Positions 1 through 27,449 of a stretch of 64,000 nt of DNA are shown here, in pieces. Where the stretch lies: positions 20,134 through 84,133 of IMG/VR virus record IMGVR_UViG_3300020160_002689; one strand, 5' to 3'. Every line of letters begins with the position of its first letter. The first letter of the stretch is position 1. The notes under the pieces were generated by a model. That model was given only the letters and a program-made list of their open reading frames with translations. It was not told where the DNA came from and did not search any database. The DNA is from a virus (taxonomy: Duplodnaviria > Heunggongvirae > Uroviricota > Caudoviricetes). A program made the translations under genes and the position numbers.

Positions 1-626
1 CCGGTATAGATATTACAATCATATTCATCTTTAGGATCAATAGTACATAAATATAAGAACATATTCTTAGGTTGAATTTCACAAACATAAATCATGTTTT
101 CAATAATATGTTTATATCTTTTCTCAGCATCTGGTTCCCAACTTTCTAATCCTTTCATTAATTTATAAATAACAACTGCAGGAAATGGACCTGTGCCATT
201 TGCAGGATCCAACCATTTTAAATTAGGATTAGACCATACTTCTTTTGGAAGAGTTGATAACATTTCCTTAACTAAATCAAGTGGTGTCATTACCTCACCA
301 AACTTTTTCTTTTCAACCTCTGCAATCTTAACATACTCTCTTAACATTAAGATAATGTTTTTAACATGTTCTATTTTAGACAAATTAATATCAGTCATAG
401 ATTCTTTAATCTGTGCAAATAGGTTTCTATCCTTATCTAATAAGGATAGAATAGCTAGTCTTTTATCTTTTTTAGGTAAAGATGAAATTGCTTGTTTAAA
501 TGTGTCATTCATTCCTGCAATACCATCAAGTATCATTGATTCAATGATATTCTCAAATATATTTTTATCTTTATCTTTATCAAATTGCTCATAATCTGCA
601 ACTGAATATTCTCCTGTTAGTATCAT
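1..626 (-). CDS. N6-adenine DNA methyltransferase, partial (N-terminal part only; gene runs off the window start)
   Basis: Reverse-strand translation from the ATG at 624-626 gives ...EVMTPLDLV... and LDPANGTGPF (AdoMet motif I, FxGxG) plus an xxTP motif typical of gamma-class N6A methyltransferases. There is no stop codon inside the window, so it is absent from the ORF track. The listed +ORF 193..594 is its shadow. Confidence 0.6.
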   Translation of the reverse strand, partial: MILTGEYSVADYEQFDKDKDKNIFENIIESMILDGIAGMNDTFKQAISSLPKKDKRLAILSLLDKDRNLFAQIKESMTDINLSKIEHVKNIILMLREYVKIAEVEKKKFGEVMTPLDLVKEMLSTLPKEVWSNPNLKWLDPANGTGPFPAVVIYKLMKGLESWEPDAEKRYKHIIENMIYVCEIQPKNMFLYLCTIDPKDEYDCNIYT

Positions 627-667
627 ATTTTATATATTAATTGTATTTGGTGTAAATATAGTGAAAT

Positions 668-2215
668 TTATTCTATAATTAAACCAAATTCTTTATTTAG
701 AATGTATTTATTTCTATCTTCATCTGATAAACTTGCTACATACTCATTTTCATAATCTGCTTCTACTTTATCAATATATTGTCCAATAGTTGGACATTTC
801 TTTTTAACCTCTGTTAAAGCATCTGGACCATCAACTGTTGGTAATCCATTAGTTGTATCAGTTGATACAATATCTTCACTTGGATTAAATCCATAGTCTC
901 TTAACTCAGTAATTAAATTACCAATGTGTTCTTTACTATCAGCATTCTCATGTATAATTGTAGGTACAATTACCCAGGCATAAGGTTTGTTAAAGTTTTC
1001 TAAATCATGAACACCCAACTTACCTTTATTTACTCTATCTCTATCATCAATATCTAAACGTGCTGCTCTACCAAATGTTTGTAAGAACTTAGCTTTACCC
1101 AAAGTTCTAATAGGTAAGATTGCAGTAATGCCAGGTACATCAATACCCTCTGCCAAAATATCATAGTGTAAAATGATAATCTCTTTTGTAGTATCTGCAC
1201 CATCAATCTTTAATCTTCTTAAAAATTCTCTTCTGTTTACTTTCTCACCATTAATATTGTTACCAATAACTTCATCTGATGCAACAGCATATATCATAAC
1301 ACCACTTCTAATGAAACCAGTATATTCTCTTGATTCAAAGAATGTTTTAATATCAGCGGTACCTTTTACAGATACTAACATTTTAGGTTTTGAAAAGTGA
1401 CCAATTGCATATCTATGTTGTGCAAATGATTCTGCAATGATTTTACCAAAACTTGTTTGAAAATCATCTGAGTTATAGTTTTTACCAGGTGTCATTACAA
1501 AGTGCATTCTTGGTCTAACCATTTTACCTTTGTCAATTGCTTCTCTTGGTGTCATTAAATAAATGATTTCACCATAAGAATCAACATTATTCATTCCTCT
1601 ACCTTTATCAGATGGAGTATTAATAGTAGTTGCAGTAAAGAAGTAACATCTATCAGTTTTTAATGTATGAATAATATCATGAAATTGCTCTTGAACTAAG
1701 TATTGTGCTTCATCATTTACAACAATGTTAATTTCTTTGTCATAGATAGCATCATTAATTCTTTCTGCAGAATTGTATGTTGAAAAGAAAATCAATGGTA
1801 ACTTTTGTTTCTCAGCTGTTTCAGTAAATTCTCTAATTAATAATGGTGAAGTACCATTCTGAATTTCAGCAAATGGAATACTATAACCTTCATTAAGGTT
1901 AGCATCAATTCTAATTTTTTCTAAATCTTCTAAGTCAGTTGTTCCACCAGAGTGAACTGACATATATCTTGCTTCAATACCTTCACTAACAAGAAATGAA
2001 TAAACTTCTTTTAGTAATTGGTATGATAACATAATACGAGGAGCATTAATAACATAAATACCAAACTTATCTCTATTTTTAAGTATATCTCTTGCAATTA
2101 CTGCTGCTTGTACAAAGGTTTTACCTGAACCTGTTGGCATACAAACAATTCCTTTTTTGTTATTATCAGTTGCTAATATAGCATCATTCTGATAGTCATA
2201 TAAGTTTTCTAACAT
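668..2215 (-). CDS. SF2 DEAD/DEAH-type helicase (ResIII-like ATPase)
   Basis: Q-motif YDYQNDAI; Walker A CMPTGSGKT; motif II VVNDEAQY; motif III FFTATT; motif VI QTFGRAARL. Confidence 0.7.
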   Translation of the reverse strand: MLENLYDYQNDAILATDNNKKGIVCMPTGSGKTFVQAAVIARDILKNRDKFGIYVINAPRIMLSYQLLKEVYSFLVSEGIEARYMSVHSGGTTDLEDLEKIRIDANLNEGYSIPFAEIQNGTSPLLIREFTETAEKQKLPLIFFSTYNSAERINDAIYDKEINIVVNDEAQYLVQEQFHDIIHTLKTDRCYFFTATTINTPSDKGRGMNNVDSYGEIIYLMTPREAIDKGKMVRPRMHFVMTPGKNYNSDDFQTSFGKIIAESFAQHRYAIGHFSKPKMLVSVKGTADIKTFFESREYTGFIRSGVMIYAVASDEVIGNNINGEKVNRREFLRRLKIDGADTTKEIIILHYDILAEGIDVPGITAILPIRTLGKAKFLQTFGRAARLDIDDRDRVNKGKLGVHDLENFNKPYAWVIVPTIIHENADSKEHIGNLITELRDYGFNPSEDIVSTDTTNGLPTVDGPDALTEVKKKCPTIGQYIDKVEADYENEYVASLSDEDRNKYILNKEFGLIIE

Positions 2216-2261
2216 ATTTTTCTTTTATTTTTACAAAGATAATAAAAATTATCTTATTATT

Positions 2262-2591
2262 TTATCCATGTTCAAAATCATGTAAATCATAGAATTTTGT
2301 TACTCTAATAACATTAACATCATCATATTCATATAGTTTAATTTTATTTTCTAAAATCTCACCTTCTTCAATAAAGGTATAACCCATTACACCACAATAG
2401 TGTTTGTATCTTTCACAATAGTCTTTTTTACCTTTAATCCAATTATCCCAAGTTTTTTGAAATAATTTTTTAGATAGAATCAGTACTATTGGTTCATCAT
2501 TTTCATCATATACTTTTATATGAATGTCTTTACCAAATACACCCAAAACTTCATCAGTACTTGGATCATATGATATATTATTTATATTCAT
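2262..2591 (-). CDS. hypothetical protein
   Basis: 109-aa ORF packed tightly in the minus-strand operon between the helicase and the Mrr-like gene. Confidence 0.4.
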   Translation of the reverse strand: MNINNISYDPSTDEVLGVFGKDIHIKVYDENDEPIVLILSKKLFQKTWDNWIKGKKDYCERYKHYCGVMGYTFIEEGEILENKIKLYEYDDVNVIRVTKFYDLHDFEHG

Positions 2592-2594
2592 TTT

Positions 2595-3197
2595 TTATTT
2601 TTTAATTTTTGAGTCTTCAATTTCTTTTACAATCTCTCTACATAAGTTCCAAAAAGATAAGTTATTATCTAATAGAACTCTTAGTTGTTCAAAACCAATA
2701 CAATGAACAAATCCTTTGAAGTTTTCATTGTCTGTATAGTGGTGTAATCCTGTTGCAGTTGTTACAACATAATGTCTTGGAATTTTAGTATTATCCTCTG
2801 CAATTACAACTTTATGTTTAATCATACCATCAGAAATCATATTTGATAAGTGGTCAGTATTTGCAGTTAAGACAGTTTTACTATTTGATCTATATTTAAC
2901 CTGTACTACACATTTCTCACCTGATAAGTTTACACCAACACCATCTACACCATTATCATCTGACTGAACAGGTTCATAATTGGTTATACCAAGTCTATTG
3001 TCATAAGCATGACTTTTTAATAGAATCTCTACTAAAAACTCAAACCCATCACCTTTATATTTATTTGAATCATACCTATCAGGATCAATTAAAGATTGTT
3101 TCTCTAATTTACCCATAAAGGTTGATACTTTATTTGTCTTATTAAAAAGAGCAGTCAAATCATGAGCTCTTAATCCAAATCCATGTGAAATCTTCAT
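2595..3197 (-). CDS. Mrr-cat / PD-(D/E)xK restriction endonuclease-like protein
   Basis: GDGFEFLVEILL ... DDNGVDGVGV ... CVVQVKYR matches the Mrr catalytic-domain pattern FE..v..ll...D..GiDg....vQcK. Confidence 0.6.
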   Translation of the reverse strand: MKISHGFGLRAHDLTALFNKTNKVSTFMGKLEKQSLIDPDRYDSNKYKGDGFEFLVEILLKSHAYDNRLGITNYEPVQSDDNGVDGVGVNLSGEKCVVQVKYRSNSKTVLTANTDHLSNMISDGMIKHKVVIAEDNTKIPRHYVVTTATGLHHYTDNENFKGFVHCIGFEQLRVLLDNNLSFWNLCREIVKEIEDSKIKK

Positions 3198-3382
3198 ATA
3201 TTATATAATTTTTCTATTCTATTTGTTTTCATATTCAATAACATATCACCACCAATGACCTCATAGTTAATACCATTAACTACTCTAATCTTTCCATGTT
3301 CTTTATGTGACCTTATTGATTTTAATAATTGTGAAGTGTCTTCACAAAATACTCTTACTGGTACTTTTCTTGTCTTAGCCAT
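3194..3382 (-). CDS. hypothetical small protein
   Basis: 62-aa ORF overlapping its neighbours by 4 nt and 1 nt (operon-style packing). Confidence 0.3.
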   Translation of the reverse strand: MAKTRKVPVRVFCEDTSQLLKSIRSHKEHGKIRVVNGINYEVIGGDMLLNMKTNRIEKLYNI

Positions 3383-3837
3383 TACTTATCTGCTTTACCT
3401 GTTTCTCTTAATCTTAATAATCTACCACAAAACTCAGATGTAGTTAATACAGTCTCACTCTTATTAGTTTTACCCATTGAGTGTGTTAATGCACCATTAC
3501 CACTTGCCATTAAAGCTTTTCTGAAACTTTCAGATTGGTCATACATTGCATTATATGCCTTATCAAGTAAATCTTGATACTCTTTAGATTTTCTATCTAT
3601 TTCAACACCTTTCCAATATAATGTTTGTGTTCTTTGCCAGTTTTTACCTGATCCTTTTCTCTTAGCAGCACCTCCAATTAATTTACATACAGATTCTTGC
3701 ATTTCCACAGATTTGAATTTTAATGATTGTAAAAATCCTTCCATAGAATAACACTCTACATCATCAATAGTAAATCTATGACCTGCAAAGTTGCTTAATG
3801 ATGATGCTGGGTAACTACTACCTGAACTTATATTCAT
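3382..3837 (-). CDS. NADAR (YbiA/DUF1768) domain protein
   Basis: LSNFAGHRF ... SMEGFLQSLKF parallels YbiA FSNFA ... SEHYFQAQKF. The downstream helical region also aligns with YbiA architecture. Confidence 0.55.
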   Translation of the reverse strand: MNISSGSSYPASSLSNFAGHRFTIDDVECYSMEGFLQSLKFKSVEMQESVCKLIGGAAKRKGSGKNWQRTQTLYWKGVEIDRKSKEYQDLLDKAYNAMYDQSESFRKALMASGNGALTHSMGKTNKSETVLTTSEFCGRLLRLRETGKADK

Positions 3838-3841
3838 AATT

Positions 3842-4087
3842 CTAATTTAATATTTTGTTTATTTTAACCTCTCTTTGAAATTGTATATAGTCACTTAATA
3901 AGTAATCATTCCAATCCTTATTAAGCATGTCAACTGCAGTCTTGTCAAAAAATACTCTTAAATAGATAAGACCATCATTATTCATTACTTCATGTGCCCA
4001 CTTTCCTTGTAACATTTTTATATGAATGGAAAGTATAAAATTATATTGTCTAATAAAATTTTGAAGTTCTTCTTTATTAATTTCCAT
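3842..4087 (-). CDS. hypothetical protein
   Basis: 81-aa ORF in the operon. Confidence 0.35.
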   Translation of the reverse strand: MEINKEELQNFIRQYNFILSIHIKMLQGKWAHEVMNNDGLIYLRVFFDKTAVDMLNKDWNDYLLSDYIQFQREVKINKILN

Positions 4088-4875
4088 TAGTACTCTACCC
4101 AGTTTTCAAAACTATTGATAAATTCTGATAAATCAAAATCTTTCAACTTATCACTCTTCTCTTTGAATGAATCAGACTTACAATAATCTAAAAAGATTTT
4201 GTTAATCTCAATACCCTCAATCACATTTATATGTTGAGCCAACCCTAAAGTTTTAGAATTGAACTTCTCAGTTAATACATTTCTTAATTCAGAAATCTTA
4301 CTATCATACTCTTTTAATAATTTGTTAGTTGTAACATCTATTGTAATTCCCAATAACTCTTTGTTACATCTATCAAAGTCAAAATCATTCTCAATCATAT
4401 CTCTTGAATATAAATATCCTCTGATAACATGTTTTAACTTCTTAGCTTTGTCATACTCAGTCTTAGCACTGAAAAAGTGTTTAGCATCCCTGCGAGCAAG
4501 TCCCAAGTAGCTACGTATAACAGTATATGTTAAAAATGTTTTTCTGTAATTGTAAAGGAATTCAATATCTGTTCCAATCAATGAAGTTGAATTGATAACC
4601 TCAAAGTTAATAGTAGAGTCACCATTCAAGCAGTTATTTAAGAAATTGTGTAATGATACAAAATTGTAGTCAACACCATCCTCTTTGTATTGTAATTGGT
4701 GGTGTGTTTTAATAAATGAGTTCAACTCATTCTCAGAAGTTGCATAAATATATAAGTAGTCTATATCAGAACTTTCTGTATTAGTTCCATACATATTAGA
4801 ACCAACAACAACTTTAGCAATTGTTGCTGACTTTAACTTTTCAAAAAGTTCCTTATCTGTAAAGTGAATGTTCAT
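4087..4875 (-). CDS. Pol-beta-superfamily nucleotidyltransferase
   Basis: VVVGSNMYGTNTESSDIDYLYIY fits the GS-x(10)-[DE]hD minimal nucleotidyltransferase motif. Confidence 0.5.
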   Translation of the reverse strand: MNIHFTDKELFEKLKSATIAKVVVGSNMYGTNTESSDIDYLYIYATSENELNSFIKTHHQLQYKEDGVDYNFVSLHNFLNNCLNGDSTINFEVINSTSLIGTDIEFLYNYRKTFLTYTVIRSYLGLARRDAKHFFSAKTEYDKAKKLKHVIRGYLYSRDMIENDFDFDRCNKELLGITIDVTTNKLLKEYDSKISELRNVLTEKFNSKTLGLAQHINVIEGIEINKIFLDYCKSDSFKEKSDKLKDFDLSEFINSFENWVEY

Positions 4876-4950
4876 TTGTTTAATATTTCTACAAATATAA
4901 GGAACTTTTCACTAATATTCTCATATAATAATAAAATAAATTTTTTAAAT

Positions 4951-6075
4951 ATGAAATTAAGAGTAATTGAATTGTTTGCTGGGATAGGAAGCCAACATAA
5001 AGCACTTAAAAATATTGGAGTTGATTGTGAAGTAGTTGGTATAAGTGAATGGTCTATTGACTCAATCATAAGTTATGCTAATGTTCACCACAACTCAGAT
5101 GAAATAACTGACTTAACTAAAGAAGAAATACTTGAAGAACTTAAAGACTTTACTTTCTCTTCTAATACTAAAACACCTATCAAAACAAGTACACTTAAAC
5201 TTGATCGTCTTAAAAAGTTATATGTAGCTAATAAAAATTCTAAAAACCTTGGATCAATTGTTGATTTAAAAGGTTCTATGACACCAGACCATGATTTATT
5301 AACTTACTCATTCCCTTGTCAAGATTTGTCAAACCAAGGGTCTCAAAGAGGTTTATTTGAAGGTAAATCATCTTCTCTTTTATGGGATGTAAATAGATTA
5401 CTAAATGAATTAAATGAAGAAGGTAGATTACCTAAATATCTTTTAATGGAAAATGTACCTGCTATCTTTGGTGAGAAAAATAAAGATGGTTTCAATATCT
5501 GGAAAGATAATCTTAAAGAAATGGGTTACATCAACTTTGACTTTAAATTGAAAGCATCATACTTTGGTATTCCTCAGAATAGAGAAAGAGCTTATATGGT
5601 TTCTATCTTAAATGGTACAGAGAATGATTTTGTTATTCCTACACAAGGAGAATTAACAAAAATGACAATTGCTGATATTTTAACACCTAATCAAGTTAGT
5701 AAATACTACTTAGACTTTAAGAGATTTTATCCACCTGTAATTAAAACAGATGTTACTAAAAATGGTATTAGTTGTTTTGATTTAGTTGGTTACACTAACT
5801 TTGCAAGTGAAAGAAAGGTATATCACTTAAATAGTATATCACCAACAATTACTGCAACTGGTGCTCAGTCAAGAATTAAAGTATATGAAAATGGTGAGAT
5901 TAGAATGTTAAGTCCAAGAGAATGTTGGAAGATGATGGGTTTCACAGACTCAGACTTTGATAAAGTAGAAGGAACTTTAATTGATAGTGCTTTAACTAAA
6001 CAAGCAGGAAACTCAATTGTAGTAAATGTTTTAGAAGCAATCTTCACAAATCTATTTAAAAAAGAAAAAGTCTAA
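4951..6075 (+). CDS. DNA (cytosine-5)-methyltransferase
   Basis: ELFAGIGS (motif I), FPCQDLS (PCQ, motif IV), ENV (VI), QNRERAYMV (VIII), GNS (X). Start moved to the ATG at 4951 (MKLRVIELFAG); the longer ORF start at 4864 overlaps the upstream gene. Confidence 0.85.
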   Translation: MKLRVIELFAGIGSQHKALKNIGVDCEVVGISEWSIDSIISYANVHHNSDEITDLTKEEILEELKDFTFSSNTKTPIKTSTLKLDRLKKLYVANKNSKNLGSIVDLKGSMTPDHDLLTYSFPCQDLSNQGSQRGLFEGKSSSLLWDVNRLLNELNEEGRLPKYLLMENVPAIFGEKNKDGFNIWKDNLKEMGYINFDFKLKASYFGIPQNRERAYMVSILNGTENDFVIPTQGELTKMTIADILTPNQVSKYYLDFKRFYPPVIKTDVTKNGISCFDLVGYTNFASERKVYHLNSISPTITATGAQSRIKVYENGEIRMLSPRECWKMMGFTDSDFDKVEGTLIDSALTKQAGNSIVVNVLEAIFTNLFKKEKV

Positions 6076-6093
6076 CAAATGTTAGACTTTTTT
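6066..6093. terminator. bidirectional rho-independent terminator hairpin
   Basis: GTCTAAC-aaat-GTTAGAC stem flanked by an A-run and a T-run, between convergent genes. Confidence 0.55.
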
Positions 6094-6095
6094 AT

Positions 6096-6398
6096 TTAGT
6101 ATGCTAATCCAGAATCATCCTTATCCCAGTGTTGTTGTAATTCTGTTTTTAATTCTTCAATTATACTTTCATCAACTTTTCCAGATAGTTTATTAATTAT
6201 ATGTTCATATGCATCTGCTTGTGCTTTTTTACAAATCCAAACTGCATCACTTCTATCTAAAAATTTACATCTATCAAATTCATCTTTATATAATTCCTTA
6301 AATCTTCTACCACTTGCAGTTTGTCTTATGAAGAAGTCTTTCCAGGTTTCACCATTACCATCTGGTTCAACATTCTCATTAAATTTCTTTATTTTCAT
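6096..6398 (-). CDS. hypothetical protein
   Basis: 100-aa ORF. Confidence 0.4.
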   Translation of the reverse strand: MKIKKFNENVEPDGNGETWKDFFIRQTASGRRFKELYKDEFDRCKFLDRSDAVWICKKAQADAYEHIINKLSGKVDESIIEELKTELQQHWDKDDSGLAY

Positions 6399-6410
6399 AA
6401 TTTATATATC

Positions 6411-7259
6411 TTAGTTAAGAATTTTTTTTGTATTTTCTAAAATTGTAAATTTTTTGTTGTTAATGAAAGAACAGTTTGCAGTGTTTAAGTTATGTCTTTG
6501 AGATACCATATAAACAACTTCACCTTCATTTTTAAAAACTAAATAAACATAGTTAAATTTAGTATCAACATGTAATGAAACTTCAACATCACCTTGAGTC
6601 ATTGTTACAAAGTCAATTTTCTTCATATAGTTCTCTTTAACATTAGCACAGATAAAGAATTTTTCTTGAGTCAATTCTAATTCTTGGTAAGCAAATCCAA
6701 TTTCATTGTAAGAAATGAAGTGTGTAAAGTTTTCAGATGAAATAGTACCTAATACAACATCTGTTGCTTGTAAACCTTTGTTTGATCCTTTTCTATAAAC
6801 TTCTTTTCTTAAATTTTCATAAATTGATTTTGTATCATCAGAATAAAATTTAATATCTAATACATTGTTTAATGCATATTTCATATTAGAGTCAATACCT
6901 TTAGTAAAGTCAGATGATGCTAAACCTAACTCTTGTGGAAATTTCATAATTCCTGTAATAGCATCATATAATTTATCATCACCTACAGAACTTTTACCAT
7001 CAACTCTAATCATTTTTTTATCACCTCTTGCAGCAGATTTGAAGTGACCTTTAAAACCAAACTCATTTCTCACCATATTAGCAGTAGCCAATTTTCTTTG
7101 AGCATTGAAAGAGTTAACTTTCTTTGTATCAATATCTTCAAAGTCAACAAAAGTATCATTAAGAGCAGTATTTGCTTCTGTAATGAAGTGTTGTTTGTCA
7201 GTGATATTAGATTGTTCAAATTGTGCTGGAGTCATAGTTTTTCTTATTTTGTTATACAA
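6411..7259 (-). CDS. hypothetical protein
   Basis: 282-aa ORF with no recognisable motifs. Confidence 0.45.
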   Translation of the reverse strand: MYNKIRKTMTPAQFEQSNITDKQHFITEANTALNDTFVDFEDIDTKKVNSFNAQRKLATANMVRNEFGFKGHFKSAARGDKKMIRVDGKSSVGDDKLYDAITGIMKFPQELGLASSDFTKGIDSNMKYALNNVLDIKFYSDDTKSIYENLRKEVYRKGSNKGLQATDVVLGTISSENFTHFISYNEIGFAYQELELTQEKFFICANVKENYMKKIDFVTMTQGDVEVSLHVDTKFNYVYLVFKNEGEVVYMVSQRHNLNTANCSFINNKKFTILENTKKILN

Positions 7260-7304
7260 ATATACAACTAATAAATGGATTTACCAAATTTAGATGTAAA
7301 AATG

Positions 7305-7322
7305 TTTAATAATATATAGTAT
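7305..7322 (+). promoter_or_regulatory. promoter-like motif TTAATAATATATAGTATT directly upstream of the ATG
   Basis: Member of the recurring TTAATATATA(T)AG motif family (see findings). Confidence 0.35.
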
Positions 7323-7323
7323 T

Positions 7324-7830
7324 ATGTCAAGAAAAAGTTCAATTAATAAAATAAAAAGAGATAATTCAAAGTCAAAGAACATAGAAGCTGCTCTTTGTAT
7401 ATACCTCTATGAGAAGTCACACTCACCTATAACAACTCACTTTACTGGTATGGGTTTACAAGAGTGTGATGTAATATCTATATCTAAGTCTGATTATATC
7501 TATGAGTATGAAGTTAAAGTAAGTAAAGCAGATTTTAAGAAAGATTTTATAAAAGAAAAACATACTCATATCATAAATGAAAAATACACCAAGACTAGAA
7601 AAGGTGAGTTGATGTATTTACTTCCAAATTATTTCAATTTTGTAACACCAAAAGATTTAATAGCTTTAGATGAAGTTCCTGATTATGCTGGGTTAATTTA
7701 TATGAATGAAGATGGTTCATTTGATATTATAAGAAAACCAAAACTCCTTCATAATACTAAAGCAAATGATTTATTCATTAGAAAGTTAGCACATAATTTA
7801 AGTTGTAAACTTGTGTTTAAAAAAGTTTAA
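7324..7830 (+). CDS. PD-(D/E)xK nuclease-like protein (MmcB/VRR-NUC-like)
   Basis: ECDVISISKSDYIYEYEVKVSKADFKKD contains a D...EYEVK arrangement typical of PD-(D/E)xK folds. Confidence 0.4.
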   Translation: MSRKSSINKIKRDNSKSKNIEAALCIYLYEKSHSPITTHFTGMGLQECDVISISKSDYIYEYEVKVSKADFKKDFIKEKHTHIINEKYTKTRKGELMYLLPNYFNFVTPKDLIALDEVPDYAGLIYMNEDGSFDIIRKPKLLHNTKANDLFIRKLAHNLSCKLVFKKV

Positions 7831-8051
7831 AGCTCAATTTTAACTGGTTTTTTATATTTTAAAATTATATTAATTATTTTAGTCATTGCAATAGTAAATG
7901 GCCATATTGCAAAAACTCTATACCAAAAGTATTGACCATTACATATTTCAGAAAATAGTCCAATGGTTGCTAACCACATTATTACTAAAAAGATTATTAA
8001 GAATGCTTTCATAGATATTATATTATTTAGTTGAACAATGTTCATGTCCAC
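7827..8051 (-). CDS. small membrane protein
   Basis: 74 aa, predicted hydrophobic helices. Confidence 0.3.
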   Translation of the reverse strand: MDMNIVQLNNIISMKAFLIIFLVIMWLATIGLFSEICNGQYFWYRVFAIWPFTIAMTKIINIILKYKKPVKIEL

Positions 8052-9496: not shown

Positions 9497-9524
9497 AAAA
9501 GTCCAGATTACTCTGGACTTTTCA
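9495..9524. terminator. bidirectional terminator hairpin
   Basis: AGTCCAGA-ttac-TCTGGACT stem with an A-run before and a T-run after, between convergent genes. Confidence 0.5.
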
Positions 9525-22620: not shown

Positions 22621-25600
22621 ATGAGTATAACATACGGTGATAATTTAAAACATAATAATCCACTATTTCCAATTGTGGATATTGAGGATGTTAAAGGTGG
22701 TATAAGAACTATTGCCACTTTTAGTAATACTGATTTATATAATGAATTTAATAGTATACCTGATAAGTTAAGACAAAATTATACTAGTTTAATTGTAACA
22801 AGTACAAACCAACACTATTATTTGACAGGAACAGATGCTACAATTACAACAAGTTGGACACTAACAGGTAGTGGACTTTCTGCATCAGGTACAACCAATA
22901 GTATTGTCAAGTGGACAGGTTCAACATCTTTAGGAGATAGTTTAATTACAGACAGTGGTGACACTGTAACTATTAATGGTAATCTTAATGTTATTGGGAC
23001 AAGTTCAACAATAACAAGTGAAAACTTATTAGTTAAGGATCCTATTATATTATTAGCAGGTTCTCAATCAACACCATTATTTGATTCAGGTTTATTTGTC
23101 AATAGAGGTACAGGTGATACACAAGCATTTATATGGGATGAATCTTCAAGTGAATTTTCATTCTTTTCAACTACTAGTAGTGCAACAACATCAGGTAATG
23201 TCTTGATTGGAACATATTCTAATGTAAGAACAGGACCATTATCAGTTGGTACTGGTATAACATCAAGTAGTAGATTTTCAGTTTCATCAACTGGTGGTAC
23301 ATTATCATTAGTTGTTAATGAACAAGGTGATGCTATTTTTAGAGGTGATACAAAAATAATAGGTGCAACACTTTCTACTAACTCTAGTATACCAGCAGGT
23401 TCAATTTTATTTGGAACAAAGACTTCAATATATTCACCTGGTGATAGACAAATAATTATAGGTACTGATAGATCTTCTACATATAATTATGCAAGTGGAT
23501 GGAAATTCACAGACTATCAAATAACAAATCTATGGGGGAATGCAATAGAGATGCAAAATACAATGGGTACTATAAGAGATTTATTTGTTGGTGCAAATAT
23601 TGCTTTTATAGGATATGGAATACGTCAACAAAGTACACTATTTGTTAAAGGTACTACAGCAAGTATTATGAGAGTTGTTGGTACTGGTGCAACTTGGAGT
23701 AATAGTGAAAGTATATTTGAAATAACAGATAATGGTGTTGGAATAGGAACTAATTCACCATCTACTAAATTACATGTTTATGCAACACAATCAGGAGCAT
23801 TTAGATTACAAGATGGGAGTGAACAAAATGATTATATTTTAAAATCAGATTCAAATGGTGTTGCTTCTTGGGTTTCTTTATCAACTATTGGAATTAGTGG
23901 TGCATCTGGTTCTGTACCTAAATTCACTGGAACTAGTTCATTAGGAGATAGTAGATTTACAGATAATGGTACTACTGGTTTTTATGGTTCAACAACTGAT
24001 TATGTTTCTTTTATATCAGGAGGAAATACATATTTATCATTGGTTAGAGCTCAGGCATCATTGTCTTTTTATTTAGGTAATCCACAAATATCACAAAATT
24101 GTCGAATAATATCTACTAATACATTAGGATTAACTATTGAGTCTGCTGGATATACTCAATTCAAAGTTGGTGTATCTTATAGTACATCATTAACAATAGA
24201 TTCAAATGGTGTCTATAATCAAATTAAAGGAACCTCAAATACTATTTATGGATATCAAGCATTATTTACAGCAACTGCATCATCATTAAATAATACTGCA
24301 TTTGGTTATCAAGCACTATATGCAAGTACTGTAAATGAAAGTGTTGCATTTGGATATCAAGCTCTACGTTTTAATACAACAGGTATTTATAATACCGCAT
24401 TGGGAAATTACTCATTATATAACAATACAACTGGTGGTAAAAATATTGCAGTTGGTTTAACAAGTTTATATAAAAATAAAACAGGTTATGATAATACTGC
24501 AGTTGGTCATCAATCAATGTATAGTAATACAACAGGATATCAAAATACTGCCATAGGTTCTTCATCACTACTTAATAATACTACTGTAGTTAATACAATT
24601 AATATAATCAATGGTGGTTCTGGATATACTGCAAGTAGTACTTTTTCTAATGTACAATTATCATATTTATCTGGTAGTAGTGCTACTACATATCCATCAG
24701 TGACGGTTTATGTTGGGGTAGGTGGAACAGTAAGTAATGTAATATTAGAGACATATGGTACAGGATTTATAGATTCTACAACAATTATGAGTGGAAATTT
24801 AGGAACAGGAGTTACTTTTTCTGTTGGTATAAGTAGTTTAACCTCAGGTGATAATAATACTGCAGTTGGTTATAATTCATTGTACTCTAATGTAAGAGGA
24901 GTTCAAAATACCGCAATTGGTTCAGGTACATTATATGCAAATAATGCTAACTTCAATATTGCAATTGGTCATAATTCTTTATATAACAATACAACTGGTT
25001 ATTACAACCTTGCAATTGGTGTAAGTTCATTACAAAATAATAAAATAGGTTTATATAATATTGCTATAGGTAACTCAGCTTTATTAACATCAACACAAAG
25101 TTATTTTAATACTGCCATAGGTTCATCTGCATTACAAGTTACTACATCGGGTCAACAAAATGTTGGTGTTGGTCATTCTACATTATCTGCAAATACAACT
25201 GGTGGATATAATAATACATTAGGTGCATTTACATTACAACAAAACACTACAGGTGTGAATAATATTGCTATAGGTAGTAGTTCATTAAATATTAACACAA
25301 CAGGTTCTAATAATATTGGTATAGGTTCACAAGCTGGATCATTTGATATTAGTTCAAATGGTGTTACTAGTTCAAATACGTCAATTTTTATAGGAAGTGA
25401 TACTAAACCAAATTCAATTAATCAATCTAATCAAATAATTATTGGACATGGCGCAACAGGTTCAGGTTCAAACTCAGTAACATTAGGTGCAAGTACAATA
25501 ACAAAGACACAATTAAGAGGAACAATAAATATAGGTAATGTACCACAATATGCAAGTAATGGTGCTGCAATATCTGGTGGTTTAGTTCCAGGAGATATAT

Positions 25601-25638
25601 ATCAAACTTTATCAAATGTTTTGATGGTGGTTATATAA
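22621..25638 (+). CDS. tail fibre protein with YadA-head-like NTA(I/V)G repeats
   Basis: 1005 aa; dozens of (Y)(Q)NTAIG/NTAVG..N.L..NTTG repeat units; N-terminal ~120 aa shared with the next gene. Confidence 0.65.
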   Translation: MSITYGDNLKHNNPLFPIVDIEDVKGGIRTIATFSNTDLYNEFNSIPDKLRQNYTSLIVTSTNQHYYLTGTDATITTSWTLTGSGLSASGTTNSIVKWTGSTSLGDSLITDSGDTVTINGNLNVIGTSSTITSENLLVKDPIILLAGSQSTPLFDSGLFVNRGTGDTQAFIWDESSSEFSFFSTTSSATTSGNVLIGTYSNVRTGPLSVGTGITSSSRFSVSSTGGTLSLVVNEQGDAIFRGDTKIIGATLSTNSSIPAGSILFGTKTSIYSPGDRQIIIGTDRSSTYNYASGWKFTDYQITNLWGNAIEMQNTMGTIRDLFVGANIAFIGYGIRQQSTLFVKGTTASIMRVVGTGATWSNSESIFEITDNGVGIGTNSPSTKLHVYATQSGAFRLQDGSEQNDYILKSDSNGVASWVSLSTIGISGASGSVPKFTGTSSLGDSRFTDNGTTGFYGSTTDYVSFISGGNTYLSLVRAQASLSFYLGNPQISQNCRIISTNTLGLTIESAGYTQFKVGVSYSTSLTIDSNGVYNQIKGTSNTIYGYQALFTATASSLNNTAFGYQALYASTVNESVAFGYQALRFNTTGIYNTALGNYSLYNNTTGGKNIAVGLTSLYKNKTGYDNTAVGHQSMYSNTTGYQNTAIGSSSLLNNTTVVNTINIINGGSGYTASSTFSNVQLSYLSGSSATTYPSVTVYVGVGGTVSNVILETYGTGFIDSTTIMSGNLGTGVTFSVGISSLTSGDNNTAVGYNSLYSNVRGVQNTAIGSGTLYANNANFNIAIGHNSLYNNTTGYYNLAIGVSSLQNNKIGLYNIAIGNSALLTSTQSYFNTAIGSSALQVTTSGQQNVGVGHSTLSANTTGGYNNTLGAFTLQQNTTGVNNIAIGSSSLNINTTGSNNIGIGSQAGSFDISSNGVTSSNTSIFIGSDTKPNSINQSNQIIIGHGATGSGSNSVTLGASTITKTQLRGTINIGNVPQYASNGAAISGGLVPGDIYQTLSNVLMVVI

Positions 25639-25673: not shown

Positions 25674-27449
25674 ATGAGTATTCAATTTGGTGACATATTA
25701 CAACACAACAATCTACTTTATCCTATTGTTGATATAAATGATGTTAAAGGTGGATTAAGAAGTATAGCTACTTTTAGTAGTCCTGCTTTAGTTTCAGAAT
25801 ATGCATCTATTCCTGAAAAGTATAGAAGTGGTTATAGTTTATTATTAGAAACAAGCACAGGTACTATCTATTATTTGGCAGGTACTGATGCAACTAATAA
25901 ATTTCATTGGAGTCCTGTAGGGGTAGGTGGTAATGGATATGGAGTTACAAATACAATACCAAAATGGACAAGTTCTTCTATATTAGGCAATAGTAATATT
26001 ACTGATAATGGTGATACTATAACTATTAATGGAAATCTAATGGTTATTGGTACTACCTCAACAGTTAGTTCTGAAAACTTATTAGTTAAAGATCCAATAA
26101 TTCTATTAGCAGGATCTCAATCAGGAGTACCTACATATGATGCTGGTTTATTTGTTAATAGAGGAAGTTCTACAACTCAAGCATTTATATGGGATGAGTC
26201 TGAAAAAGAGTTTAAATTTATCACTACAACAAGTGGTGCAACAGTATCAGGAGATGTAACAATTGGAACTTATTCAAGTGTAAGAACTGGAATTTTAAGT
26301 GTTGGTACAGGAAGTATAGCAAATAGTAGATTTATAGTTTCATCATCTGGCGGAACTGTTTCTTTGGTAGTAGATGAATTTGGAAATGTTTATAATAATG
26401 GAAATGGTGGAATAGCTACCAATACTGCATTTGGTGCAAGTGCATTATCAGTAAACACAACCGGTTATAGAGACACTGCAATAGGCGTTAATGCATTACT
26501 CTCAAATACAACAGGACATGAGAATACTGCAATTGGATATAATTCATTATCACTAAATACAATAGGAAAATTTAATACTACTATAGGTGATTCTACAATG
26601 GTACTGAATACAACTGGAAGTTATAACGTTGCAGTTGGATATGGTGCATTATATTATAATAATGGTAATTTTAATACTGCAGTTGGTATGGCATCATTGC
26701 AATTAAATAGTACAGGTATTAATAATACTGCACTTGGTTATAATACTTTGGGTATGAATACAACCGGTACTGATAATGTTGCCATAGGTAATGGGGCCTT
26801 GGGTTCAAATACAATAAGTTCTGGAAATATTGCAATTGGTTCAGATGCTCTGACAAATAGTAATAGTGATGATAATTTAGCTATAGGTACTCAGGCTTTG
26901 GGTTATTCAACAACAGGTATATTTAATGTTGGGATTGGTTCACTTACATTATTTTCTAATACTACAGGTTATCAAAATACTGCAATAGGATATAACTCAT
27001 TGGCTTTGAATAAAATAGGTTATCAAAATACTGCTATAGGACATCAGGCAGGACCTTCTCTTAATGGCGCAACCAACTCTATAAACTCAATTTATATAGG
27101 ACATCAGGCAGGTCATTATTCTAATGGTTATAGTAATGAAATTATAATAGGAACTACACAAAGTTATGGTACAAACTCAGTTGTATTAGGTAATACATCA
27201 ATTACCAAAACTATTTTAAGAGGTAGTATTCTTGTTGGTACAACTACAACATCTTCTTCAGCAATATTAAAAATAGATAGTTTTAGTCAGGGTGTATTAG
27301 TTCCAAGAATGAGAACCAGTGAAATAAATTCAATTGCACTTCCTATAGAGGATGGATTAATAGTTTATAATACTGATATAAATTTGATATGTTATTATGA
27401 TGGTGGTAGTGCAAACTGGATGAAGATTACTGGTGTTACAACAATGTAA
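25674..27449 (+). CDS. tail fibre protein paralog
   Basis: N-terminus (MSIQFGDILQHNNLLYPIVDINDVKGGLRSIATFS ... YYLAGTDAT) is homologous to the 22621 N-terminus; same NTAIG repeats; different C-terminal domain. Confidence 0.65.
   Translation: MSIQFGDILQHNNLLYPIVDINDVKGGLRSIATFSSPALVSEYASIPEKYRSGYSLLLETSTGTIYYLAGTDATNKFHWSPVGVGGNGYGVTNTIPKWTSSSILGNSNITDNGDTITINGNLMVIGTTSTVSSENLLVKDPIILLAGSQSGVPTYDAGLFVNRGSSTTQAFIWDESEKEFKFITTTSGATVSGDVTIGTYSSVRTGILSVGTGSIANSRFIVSSSGGTVSLVVDEFGNVYNNGNGGIATNTAFGASALSVNTTGYRDTAIGVNALLSNTTGHENTAIGYNSLSLNTIGKFNTTIGDSTMVLNTTGSYNVAVGYGALYYNNGNFNTAVGMASLQLNSTGINNTALGYNTLGMNTTGTDNVAIGNGALGSNTISSGNIAIGSDALTNSNSDDNLAIGTQALGYSTTGIFNVGIGSLTLFSNTTGYQNTAIGYNSLALNKIGYQNTAIGHQAGPSLNGATNSINSIYIGHQAGHYSNGYSNEIIIGTTQSYGTNSVVLGNTSITKTILRGSILVGTTTTSSSAILKIDSFSQGVLVPRMRTSEINSIALPIEDGLIVYNTDINLICYYDGGSANWMKITGVTTM

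What the first reader, a model, noticed from the sequence alone, without database searches (positions are those of the whole stretch)
1..4875. Tightly packed minus-strand operon: N6A methyltransferase, SF2 helicase, Mrr-type nuclease, NADAR and a nucleotidyltransferase
Eight genes with 0-4 nt spacers or overlaps encode a gamma-class N6A methyltransferase (truncated by the window edge), a 515-aa SF2 helicase (DEAQ box), an Mrr-cat PD-(D/E)xK nuclease, a NADAR domain protein, a minimal nucleotidyltransferase and three small unknown proteins. Methyltransferase plus helicase plus Mrr-like nuclease is the component set of helicase-coupled restriction systems (type III/ISP/Mrr-like). NADAR proteins reverse DarT-type DNA ADP-ribosylation. 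In a phage this could be a combined offence and defence island: self-protection, exclusion of competing phages, anti-DarTG. The precise gene combination does not match a named system that I know.
Basis: partly seen in the sequence, partly recalled or inferred. Interest (0 to 1): 0.6.

Follow-up and report, generated by a model that had tools for sequence, protein, structure and literature searches.

The report
Phage-borne split Type ISP-like restriction cassette
Three of the eight genes (a DNA-cutting enzyme, a DNA motor and a DNA methylase) form a cassette that many large phages carry together and that looks like a known one-protein restriction enzyme broken into separate genes; the other five genes are unrelated neighbours, one of them a known counter-defence enzyme.

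Summary
They are not one system.

**Conserved core.** Only three genes travel together: the Mrr-family nuclease (2595-3197), the SF2 helicase (668-2215) and the Eco57I-type gamma N6A methyltransferase (1-626, 541 aa in full).
- In 34 of 35 related phage loci the nuclease has the helicase on the same strand within 2.1 kb or less. Methyltransferase sequence is also present wherever the contig reaches. These loci include T4-like cyanophages and 160-633 kb metagenomic phage contigs.
- No other window gene recurs in these loci.

**Link to Type ISP.**
- Relatives exist as one chain in the Type ISP order: nuclease-helicase at 716-780 aa, and nuclease-helicase-methyltransferase at 1228-1257 aa.
- The Mrr catalytic signature is invariant.
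- The methyltransferase C-terminal part is only 18-26% identical between phages whose other parts are 67-80% identical. This looks like a swapped target-recognition domain.

**Best reading (inferred, untested).** A phage-borne, split Type ISP-like ATP-dependent restriction-modification enzyme.

**Neighbours.** The "NADAR" gene is AdfN (T4 gp30.3), a known anti-DarTG1 factor. The nucleotidyltransferase and the three small ORFs are not conserved neighbours.

The parts
1..626 (-). CORE: N-terminal 208 codons of a 541-aa Eco57I-type gamma-class N6-adenine DNA methyltransferase with a C-terminal variable (target-recognition) part. The rest lies beyond the window's left edge.
   Evidence: Start codon at 626. 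The full gene was recovered from the source contig, L006:11590-13215. Pfam Eco57I 1.1e-9 and N6_Mtase 5.8e-7. Motif X, motif I and NPPY are invariant in 5 relatives. The C-terminal part is only 18-26% identical among close relatives.
668..2215 (-). CORE: 515-aa SF2 helicase-like ATPase, the putative dsDNA translocase of the restriction type.
2262..2591 (-). 109-aa ORF of unknown function between the nuclease and the helicase. Not part of the conserved cassette.
   Evidence: No hit in Pfam, PHROGs, PADLOC or NCBIfam. Absent from all related loci, where the nuclease and helicase genes are usually 6-200 nt apart.
2595..3197 (-). CORE: 200-aa stand-alone Mrr-family PD-(D/E)xK nuclease (PHROG 7683).
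3194..3382 (-). 62-aa ORF of unknown function, a neighbour that is not conserved with the cassette.
   Evidence: No significant family hit. Absent from related loci.
3382..3837 (-). AdfN / T4 gp30.3 homologue: a NADAR-superfamily DNA ADP-ribosylglycohydrolase and anti-DarTG1 factor. An independent gene.
   Evidence: Pfam Phage_30_3 2e-52. 37% identity to T4 gp30.3 over the full length, E 3e-29, with T4 E36/K43 aligned to E33/K40. Function of the family is from PMC11257639. Not found next to the cassette in any other locus.
3842..4087 (-). 81-aa ORF of unknown function, a neighbour.
   Evidence: No family hit. Absent from related loci.
4087..4875 (-). 262-aa pol-beta-fold nucleotidyltransferase of the RlaP type, a neighbour. 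Possibly belongs with the Thg1-like gene at 9508-10335.
   Evidence: RlaP 1.3e-8 and NTP_transf_2 7e-4. phrog_388 3.5e-20. Absent from related loci.

Best explanation
Window 1-3197 encodes a three-subunit, phage-borne version of a Type ISP-like ATP-dependent restriction-modification enzyme.

**Proposed mechanism**
1. The methyltransferase subunit carries a gamma-class N6-adenine catalytic module and a C-terminal target-recognition part. It binds a specific DNA sequence.
2. It methylates that sequence on the phage's own DNA.
3. On unmethylated sites (host chromosome, co-infecting phages, plasmids) it engages the SF2 ATPase.
4. The ATPase translocates along double-stranded DNA, carrying the Mrr-family nuclease.
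5. The nuclease cuts when translocation stalls or two complexes collide, as in LlaGI and LlaBIII.

**Shown here**
- The identity and intact catalytic motifs of all three proteins.
- Their co-inheritance across distant phages, in shuffled gene orders.
- Single-chain relatives in the nuclease-helicase-methyltransferase order.
- Hypervariability of the methyltransferase C-terminal part.

**Inferred**
- That the three proteins form a physical complex.
- Sequence-specific adenine methylation.
- ATP-driven translocation.
- Cleavage of unmethylated DNA.
- The biological role: destruction of host DNA for nucleotide recycling, or exclusion of competing phages.

The remaining five genes of the finding are separate. 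One is AdfN (anti-DarTG1), one is an RlaP-type nucleotidyltransferase, and three are small ORFs of unknown function.
For: 1. **Synteny.** Of 35 loci that carry the Mrr-like gene, 34 have the helicase on the same strand within 2.1 kb or less. MTase sequence is present wherever the contig extends far enough. Five or more different gene orders occur. A tblastn of every window ORF against these loci finds only these three genes shared next to the cassette.
2. **Fusions.** A profile of the Mrr-like family finds 716-780-aa proteins made of the Mrr-like domain plus ResIII/DEAD/Helicase_C. It also finds 1228-1257-aa proteins made of Mrr-like, helicase and N6_Mtase/Eco57I.
   - P0410 aligns with the window helicase over its whole length (E 8e-69).
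   - P0410 aligns with the MTase from residue 19 (E 6e-42).
   - The fusion joint falls at the end of the stand-alone nuclease.
5. **MTase.** Between phages whose nuclease is 78-80% identical, helicase 73-78% and MTase catalytic part 67-77%, the MTase C-terminal part is only 18-26% identical. In the Bellamy-like cyanophages the NPPY+TRD gene is likewise the most divergent component and is often only partly alignable. This is the pattern expected of a swapped specificity domain.
6. **Phage restriction.** The family is essentially confined to phages. A scan of 185,579 species genomes with one peptide pattern gave one hit, on a 44-kb MAG contig. The fused P0430 also lies on a phage-like contig.
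Against: - There is no biochemical or genetic evidence for any member of the family.
- Type ISP is defined as a single polypeptide. Here there are three, or four where the MTase is itself split.
- The fused relatives show no significant sequence match to LlaBIII or LlaGI. This is therefore a separate lineage with the same architecture.
- The helicase model is only moderately confident (pLDDT 78.8).
- One locus (L032) has the nuclease and an MTase fragment but no helicase within 7 kb. In L007 the MTase lies 3 kb from the other two genes.
- A helicase paralogue without partners is a core gene of T4-like cyanophages.
- The closest structural relatives of the nuclease, apart from LlaBIII, are modification-dependent enzymes (AspBHI, MspJI).
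- PADLOC assigns none of the proteins to a complete named system.
Confidence: 0.6

Rival explanations
1. The three proteins act together on DNA, but not as a classical restriction system. For example, they could form a methylation-coupled processing machine used in phage replication, recombination or packaging. Alternatively the nuclease could cut methylated rather than unmethylated DNA, a Type IV-like polarity, with the MTase marking the target.
Against: A phage that methylates DNA and then cuts methylated DNA would attack its own genome. The nuclease-helicase-MTase-variable C-terminus architecture is that of enzymes that cut unmethylated DNA. Swapping of a specificity domain among close relatives is typical of restriction-modification, not of housekeeping DNA processing.
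Confidence: 0.15
2. The MTase is an orphan protective methylase used against host restriction. The nuclease and helicase are an unrelated two-protein helicase-nuclease for recombination, repair, host-DNA degradation or a Hachiman-like function. The linkage is only co-inheritance in a variable genome region.
For: The same window carries two further orphan-looking C5 methylases at 4951-6075 and 16095-16949. Nuclease-helicase fusions without an MTase are commoner than triple fusions. In L007 the MTase is 3 kb away, and L032 lacks the helicase. There is a weak N-terminal HamB hit.
Against: Three representative proteins fuse all three parts in one chain. MTase sequence accompanies the pair in every locus long enough to show it, across T4-like cyanophages and much larger phages, while the flanks change completely. 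The HamB match covers only the Walker A region at E 0.003.
Confidence: 0.12
3. One reading: all eight genes form one integrated offence/defence island. In this view restriction, anti-DarT and nucleotidyltransferase activities are co-ordinated.
For: The genes are co-directional and tightly packed, with no terminator-like site between them. AdfN is a true counter-defence gene.
Against: None of the five non-core genes is found near the cassette in any of 34 other loci. This includes relatives with 73-80% identical core proteins, where the flanks are Metallophos or NUDIX genes instead. AdfN works alone in T4 (PMC11257639).
Confidence: 0.04

Closest known systems
[quoted passage not shown]
   Same: - The same four modules in the same order: Mrr-family nuclease, SF2 helicase-like ATPase, gamma-class N6A methyltransferase and a C-terminal variable recognition part.
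- The same Mrr motif: E; D-x-G-V-D; Q-x-K.
- Single-chain relatives of the phage family have exactly this architecture.
   Different: - In the window there are three separate genes, and four where the MTase is split.
- The family is found on phage contigs, not on bacterial plasmids or chromosomes.
- There is no significant sequence similarity to LlaGI or LlaBIII, so it is a separate lineage.
- A coupler domain is not demonstrated.
- The activity is untested.
Type I restriction-modification (HsdR/HsdM/HsdS)
   Same: - Multi-subunit and ATP-dependent.
- A gamma-class N6A methylase.
   Different: - There is no separate HsdS specificity subunit. Specificity appears to reside in the MTase C-terminus.
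- The nuclease is of the Mrr family rather than the RecB family, and is a separate protein rather than the N-terminus of HsdR.
Type III restriction-modification (EcoP1I of phage P1, EcoP15I)
   Same: - A helicase-coupled system of Mod plus Res.
- EcoP1I is a precedent for a phage-borne ATP-dependent restriction system (own knowledge).
- Weak PADLOC REase_III hits to the helicase.
   Different: - Mod is a beta-class methylase with an internal recognition domain.
- Res carries its nuclease at the C-terminus.
- P1 is temperate, whereas these are T4-like and giant lytic-type phages.
Chlorovirus restriction-modification systems
   Same: A virus-encoded methylase plus nuclease, used to destroy host DNA while the methylated viral genome is spared (own knowledge). 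This is a functional analogy for the proposed role.
   Different: Those are Type II-like enzymes without a motor. There is no homology.
AdfN (T4 gp30.3), anti-DarT factor NADAR
   Same: The gene at 3382-3837 is a full-length homologue (Pfam 2e-52, 37% identity) with both catalytic residues conserved.
   Different: It sits in a 28% G+C marine phage rather than a Tevenvirinae member. Its activity on unmodified-cytosine DNA is not known.

Membership tests
Type ISP restriction-modification enzymes | All activities in a single polypeptide | tested here: not met
   The window has three separate ORFs with their own starts and stops. However, relatives P0410, P0430 and P0483 (1228-1257 aa) carry all three parts in one chain.
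Type ISP restriction-modification enzymes | N-terminal Mrr-family nuclease with motif I E, motif II D-x-G-h-D and motif III Q-x-K | tested here: met
Type ISP restriction-modification enzymes | SF2 helicase-like ATPase following the nuclease | tested here: met
Type ISP restriction-modification enzymes | Coupler domain between the helicase and the methyltransferase | tested here: inconclusive
   The helicase has a roughly 100-aa C-terminal extension and the MTase a roughly 100-aa N-terminal extension. These are contiguous in the fused P0410. No structural comparison of this segment was made.
Type ISP restriction-modification enzymes | Gamma-class N6-adenine methyltransferase followed by a target-recognition domain | tested here: met
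   The motifs run in the order X (GEVMTP), I (DPANGTG), IV (NPPY at residue 235), followed by about 300 aa. Pfam Eco57I and N6_Mtase match. That the C-terminal part is a recognition domain is inferred from its hypervariability only.
Type ISP restriction-modification enzymes | ATP-driven translocation from an unmethylated asymmetric site, cleavage on collision, and hemimethylation | not testable with these tools
   This needs biochemistry.
Type ISP restriction-modification enzymes | Sequence relatedness to LlaGI or LlaBIII | tested here: not met
   No significant phmmer or profile hit to 4xqk or 4xjx from the nuclease profile, the helicase, the MTase or the fused relatives. The similarity is structural and architectural only.
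Type I restriction-modification | Separate HsdS specificity subunit, and HsdR with an N-terminal RecB-family nuclease | tested here: not met
   No conserved fourth gene with S-subunit character accompanies the cassette. The nuclease is of the Mrr family and stands alone.
Type III restriction-modification | Beta-class Mod methylase, and Res with a C-terminal nuclease | tested here: not met
   The MTase motif order is gamma. No nuclease family was detected in the helicase C-terminus, and the nuclease is a separate gene, usually upstream.
Hachiman (HamA nuclease + HamB helicase) | HamA (DUF1837) and HamB family membership | tested here: not met
AdfN / NADAR (gene 3382-3837) | Phage_30_3 family membership with the catalytic Glu and Lys (T4 E36, K43) | tested here: met
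   Pfam 2e-52. BLASTP to T4 gp30.3 gave E 3e-29, with E33 and K40 aligned to E36 and K43. The mutant strains E36A and K43A are listed in PMC11257639.
AdfN / NADAR (gene 3382-3837) | Removes ADP-ribose from DNA and counters DarTG1 | not testable with these tools
   Known for the T4 protein (PMC11257639) and untested for this homologue.

The most novel reading that the evidence does not exclude
A phage-restricted lineage of Type ISP-like ATP-dependent restriction-modification enzymes exists in every state of gene fission. The states are one chain; nuclease-helicase plus MTase; three genes; and four genes with the methylase itself split between motifs III and IV. Lytic T4-like cyanophages, marine phages and phages with genomes over 600 kb would use it as an offensive weapon. 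It would shred the unmethylated host chromosome or rival phage genomes while their own methylated DNA is spared, and rapid swapping of the recognition domain would drive an arms race.
Probability: 0.45. Interest if true: 0.7.

Novelty: new variant of a known kind. Interest (0 to 1): 0.55.

Why it matters
- **Host-DNA degradation.** If the cassette restricts unmethylated DNA, it gives a concrete, testable answer to an open question. That question is how T4-like phages that lack hydroxymethylcytosine, such as cyanophages and marine relatives, tell host DNA from their own when they degrade it. It would also bear on how phages compete inside a co-infected cell.
- **Enzymology.** The family offers natural split and fused versions of one molecular machine. 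This is useful for dissecting how recognition, motor and nuclease are coupled in Type ISP and Type I enzymes.
- **Tractability.** Three cultured cyanophages carry the cassette: S-CAM7, ACG-2014f and Bellamy. The experiments are therefore feasible.
- **Annotation.** PHROG 7683 ('unknown function') can be named an Mrr-family nuclease subunit. The 'hypothetical' 130-aa and 400-aa cyanophage genes can be named as halves of a methyltransferase.

Tried and rejected
1. DNA-level search of window 1-8000 against GenBank phages. Only the AdfN gene matched (65-67% to enterobacterial T4-like phages), plus ORF 7324-7830 (78-83% to two uncultured phages of about 640 kb). This was no help for the cassette.
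2. Single-protein scans of viral contigs with the helicase found nothing, and with the nuclease found only two loci. An alignment query was needed.
3. Direct BLASTP of the truncated MTase against the cyanophage 393- and 417-aa proteins gave nothing. The relation only appeared once the full-length MTase was recovered and the cyanophage MTase was recognised as split in two genes.
5. NCBIfam gave nothing useful. There were weak dnd_restrict_1 and HsdR hits for the helicase and a weak NADAR-family hit for AdfN.
6. PADLOC gave no complete named system. There were PbeA, REase_III and REase_I fragments for the helicase and MTase_II for the methylase.
8. The promoter and terminator scan was uninformative in this AT-rich sequence.
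9. Two literature searches for a prior description of such a phage cassette found none. They covered cyanophage/helicase/methyltransferase/Eco57I and phage-encoded restriction in lytic phages. This is absence from that library only.
10. The scan of species genomes used a single peptide pattern, so 'phage-restricted' is a lower-bound statement.

Full report
**1. What is in the sequence**

The leftmost gene is cut by the window edge. Its start codon is at 626.

An exact-protein look-up of the helicase recovered the source contig, an 80.6-kb ENA metagenome contig held as L006. That contig shows the cut gene to be 541 aa long.

Family searches confirm each domain call:

| Gene | Evidence |
|---|---|
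| Helicase | DEAD 6.4e-13, ResIII 1.1e-11 |
| 200-aa protein | Mrr_cat 2.9e-4; PHROG 7683 ('unknown function') 9.6e-37 |
| 151-aa protein | Phage_30_3 2e-52 |
| 262-aa protein | RlaP 1.3e-8, NTP_transf_2 7e-4 |
| Full methyltransferase | Eco57I 1.1e-9, N6_Mtase 5.8e-7 |
| 109-, 62- and 81-aa ORFs | no match in any library |

Five junctions are overlaps or gaps of 4 nt or less, and two are gaps of 41 and 46 nt. There is no terminator-like site on the minus strand in this stretch. Promoter-like sites are at chance level.

The window as a whole is a phage. It encodes tail-spike and virion proteins and an NAD-dependent ligase, at about 28% G+C. A relative with a 77% identical helicase lies on a 633,508-bp contig.

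**2. Only three of the eight genes belong together**

A tblastn of the Mrr-like protein against GenBank phages found it only in T4-like cyanophages. There it lies beside an orthologue of the helicase and beside methyltransferase genes.

More loci came from several sources:
- an alignment-based scan of viral contigs;
- a scan of one genome per species;
- look-ups of homologues from the protein database.

Together these give 35 loci that carry the Mrr-like gene. In 34 of them the helicase lies on the same strand within 2.1 kb or less. Methyltransferase sequence is present wherever the contig reaches far enough. The exception is L032, which has the nuclease and a methylase fragment but no helicase within 7 kb.

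Gene order varies:

| Order | Where |
|---|---|
| nuclease-helicase-MTase | window, L035, L036 |
| MTase-nuclease-helicase | L030 |
| nuclease-helicase-MTc-MTn | many phage contigs |
| helicase-MTc-nuclease-MTn | Bellamy-like cyanophages |
| MTn-nuclease-MTc-helicase | ACG-2014f |
| nuclease-MTc-helicase-MTn | S-CAM7 |

When every window ORF of 60 aa or more is searched against these loci, the only genes shared next to the cassette are these three.

Even in close relatives the flanks differ. In L035 and L036 the nuclease is 78-80% identical and the helicase 73-77% identical to the window's. Their flanks are Metallophos or NUDIX genes. AdfN, the nucleotidyltransferase and the three small ORFs are all absent.

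So the eight-gene 'operon' is a conserved three-gene cassette embedded among unrelated, tightly packed phage genes.

**3. The three proteins are parts of one machine**

A profile of 126 Mrr-like sequences was searched against 1.84 billion representative proteins. It gave 673 hits.

Most hits are stand-alone proteins of 185-230 aa. Among the best 150, however, some are fusions:
- Six proteins of 716-780 aa consist of the Mrr-like domain followed by ResIII/DEAD/Helicase_C.
- Three proteins of 1228-1257 aa consist of the Mrr-like domain, the helicase and an N6_Mtase/Eco57I methyltransferase.

The fused protein P0410 aligns with the window proteins as follows:
- with the window helicase over its entire length, at 31% identity and E 8e-69;
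- with the window-phage methyltransferase from residue 19 onward, at E 6e-42.

The joint between nuclease and helicase in the fusions falls exactly where the stand-alone nuclease ends and the stand-alone helicase begins. The fusions also keep the nuclease motifs.

One fused gene, P0430, lies on an 84-kb phage-like contig.

Conserved linkage in shuffled orders, together with fusions in one chain, is strong evidence that the three proteins work as a complex.

**4. What kind of machine**

*Nuclease.*
- An AlphaFold model built on the 126-sequence alignment is confident (pLDDT 93.2).
- The family keeps the full Mrr signature defined by mutagenesis in LlaGI. That signature is E38, D74-x-G-V-D78 and Q92-x-K94, with D74, D78 and K94 essential (PMC2790908).
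- In the window protein these are E53, D81-N-G83-V-D85 and Q99-V-K101, with identical spacing between the last three.
- E53, G83, D85, Q99 and K101 are invariant in all 126 sequences. Position 81 is acidic in 124.

*Helicase.*
- The model is moderately confident (pLDDT 78.8).
- Generic SF2 proteins score 18.3 or less, and T4 UvsW scores 14.7 at rank 51.
- The Q motif and motifs I, II, III and VI are invariant in 12 diverse members.

*Methyltransferase.*
- The motifs run in the gamma order, X then I then IV, followed by about 300 residues.
- That C-terminal part is only 18-26% identical between the window phage, L035 and L036. Their catalytic parts are 67-77% identical.
- In the Bellamy-like cyanophages the NPPY-bearing gene is also the most divergent component and is often alignable only in its N-terminal half.
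- This is the behaviour of a target-recognition domain that is being exchanged.

Taken together, the order is Mrr nuclease, SF2 motor, gamma N6A methylase and a variable recognition domain. That is the Type ISP architecture (PMC4666363 abstract), here split into three genes.

**5. Most likely mechanism**

This mechanism is inferred by analogy with LlaGI and LlaBIII.

1. The methylase subunit recognises a specific, probably asymmetric, site.
2. It methylates an adenine in that site on phage DNA.
3. At unmethylated sites it activates the motor.
4. The motor translocates on double-stranded DNA with the nuclease.
5. The nuclease cuts on stalling or collision.

Virion DNA would already be methylated from the previous cycle. 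An infecting phage would therefore be protected, while the host chromosome and rival phages would not. Whether the pay-off is nucleotide recycling from host DNA or exclusion of competitors cannot be decided here.

Confidence that the three proteins form one DNA-acting machine is high. Confidence that it is a restriction-modification enzyme in the classical sense is moderate (0.6 overall).

**6. Reasons for caution**

- No member of the family has been tested experimentally.
- The family has no significant sequence similarity to LlaGI or LlaBIII, so the resemblance is of architecture and fold.
- One locus lacks the helicase, and one has the methylase 3 kb away.
- A partner-less paralogue of the helicase is a core gene of T4-like cyanophages ('T4-like GC 36').
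- The phage also carries two C5 methylases that look like ordinary protective enzymes.

**7. The other genes**

*AdfN homologue (3382-3837).* This is a full-length homologue of T4 gp30.3, with 37% identity and E 3e-29. The residues matching T4 E36 and K43 are conserved as E33 and K40. gp30.3 has been renamed AdfN. It is a NADAR-superfamily enzyme that removes ADP-ribose from DNA, and it is necessary and sufficient to overcome DarTG1 (PMC11257639).

*Nucleotidyltransferase (4087-4875).* This is an RlaP-type enzyme. A Thg1-like gene lies at 9508-10335, which hints at an RNA-repair set. This was not pursued.

*Small ORFs.* The three small ORFs remain unknown. The 109-aa ORF sits between the nuclease and the helicase only in this lineage.

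**8. Novelty and verdict**

The components and the enzyme class are known. The new points are these:
- the class exists as a widespread, apparently phage-restricted lineage;
- it occurs in one-, two-, three- and four-gene forms;
- T4-like cyanophages and very large phages carry it;
- the cyanophage genes involved are annotated as hypothetical.

Two literature searches found no description of it.

I rate it a new variant of a known kind, with interest 0.55.

Noticed in passing
L004:4897-5301 and 6032-7213; L003:9122-9523 and 6324-7577; L005:6557-6961 and 4746-5999; also L033 and L034: In cyanophages and many other phages the cassette's methyltransferase is split into two genes. One is a roughly 134-aa protein with motifs X and I. 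The other is a 324-417-aa protein with NPPY and the variable C-terminus. The two are sometimes separated by the nuclease or helicase gene. The larger piece has an extra N-terminal segment of about 95 aa with no counterpart in the fused enzyme. A gamma-class N6A methylase split in trans is unusual.
   Followed up: partly
window 4951-6075 (+) and 16095-16949 (-): There are two C5-cytosine DNA methyltransferases (Pfam DNA_methylase 2.5e-59 and 9.9e-41). With the N6A enzyme, that makes three DNA methylases in the first 17 kb.
   Followed up: no
window 9508-10335 (-), with 4087-4875 (-): A Thg1-like tRNA-His guanylyltransferase homologue (Thg1 1.9e-29, Thg1C 4.5e-5) lies near the RlaP-type nucleotidyltransferase. 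This may be a tRNA or RNA repair set. Thg1 also flanks the cassette region in the 633-kb relative (L036:2037-2855).
   Followed up: no
window 7312-7827 (ORF 7324-7830, +, 168 aa): Apart from AdfN, this is the only stretch of the first 8 kb with DNA-level similarity to GenBank phages. It is 78-83% identical to two uncultured phages of 634-642 kb (LR745206, LR756502). The protein has no Pfam hit.
   Followed up: no
window 3403-3842: The AdfN gene keeps 65-68% nucleotide identity to T4-like phages of Klebsiella, Cronobacter, Erwinia and Salmonella, despite the 28% G+C background. It is the best-conserved gene of the region across phage groups.
   Followed up: partly
L006:13250-14005, just beyond the window's left edge and downstream of the methylase: A 251-aa DUF7277/DUF7275 protein with a weak AbiEii nucleotidyltransferase-toxin hit (E 0.009). 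A GIY-YIG/NUMOD1 homing-endonuclease-like gene lies at L006:15203-16102, and a GIY-YIG gene also lies near the cassette in L036. This suggests a plastic region rich in mobile genes.
   Followed up: no
window 10656-11279 (-) and 12079-12726 (-): Two ORFs of 207 and 215 aa both match the same stretch of L013 and L029 (40-44% identity). They are therefore paralogues. Neither has a Pfam hit.
   Followed up: no
L032:7001-9095 (245-kb contig): This is the only locus where the Mrr-like gene has a methylase fragment nearby but no helicase and no NPPY-bearing gene within 7 kb. It may be a decayed or rearranged cassette.
   Followed up: partly
L005:1721-2944; L031:4007-5224: A partner-less paralogue of the cassette helicase is a core gene of T4-like cyanophages ('T4-like GC 36', matched in 419 phage records). 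In Bellamy-like phages it lies next to the cassette. Its function is not annotated beyond 'helicase'.
   Followed up: partly
window 22621-25638 (+) and 25674-27449 (+): Two adjacent large ORFs hit the same PHROGs (6002, 4636, 23837: virion structural and tail spike proteins) with repeated stretches. They are probably paralogous tail-fibre or tail-spike genes.
   Followed up: no
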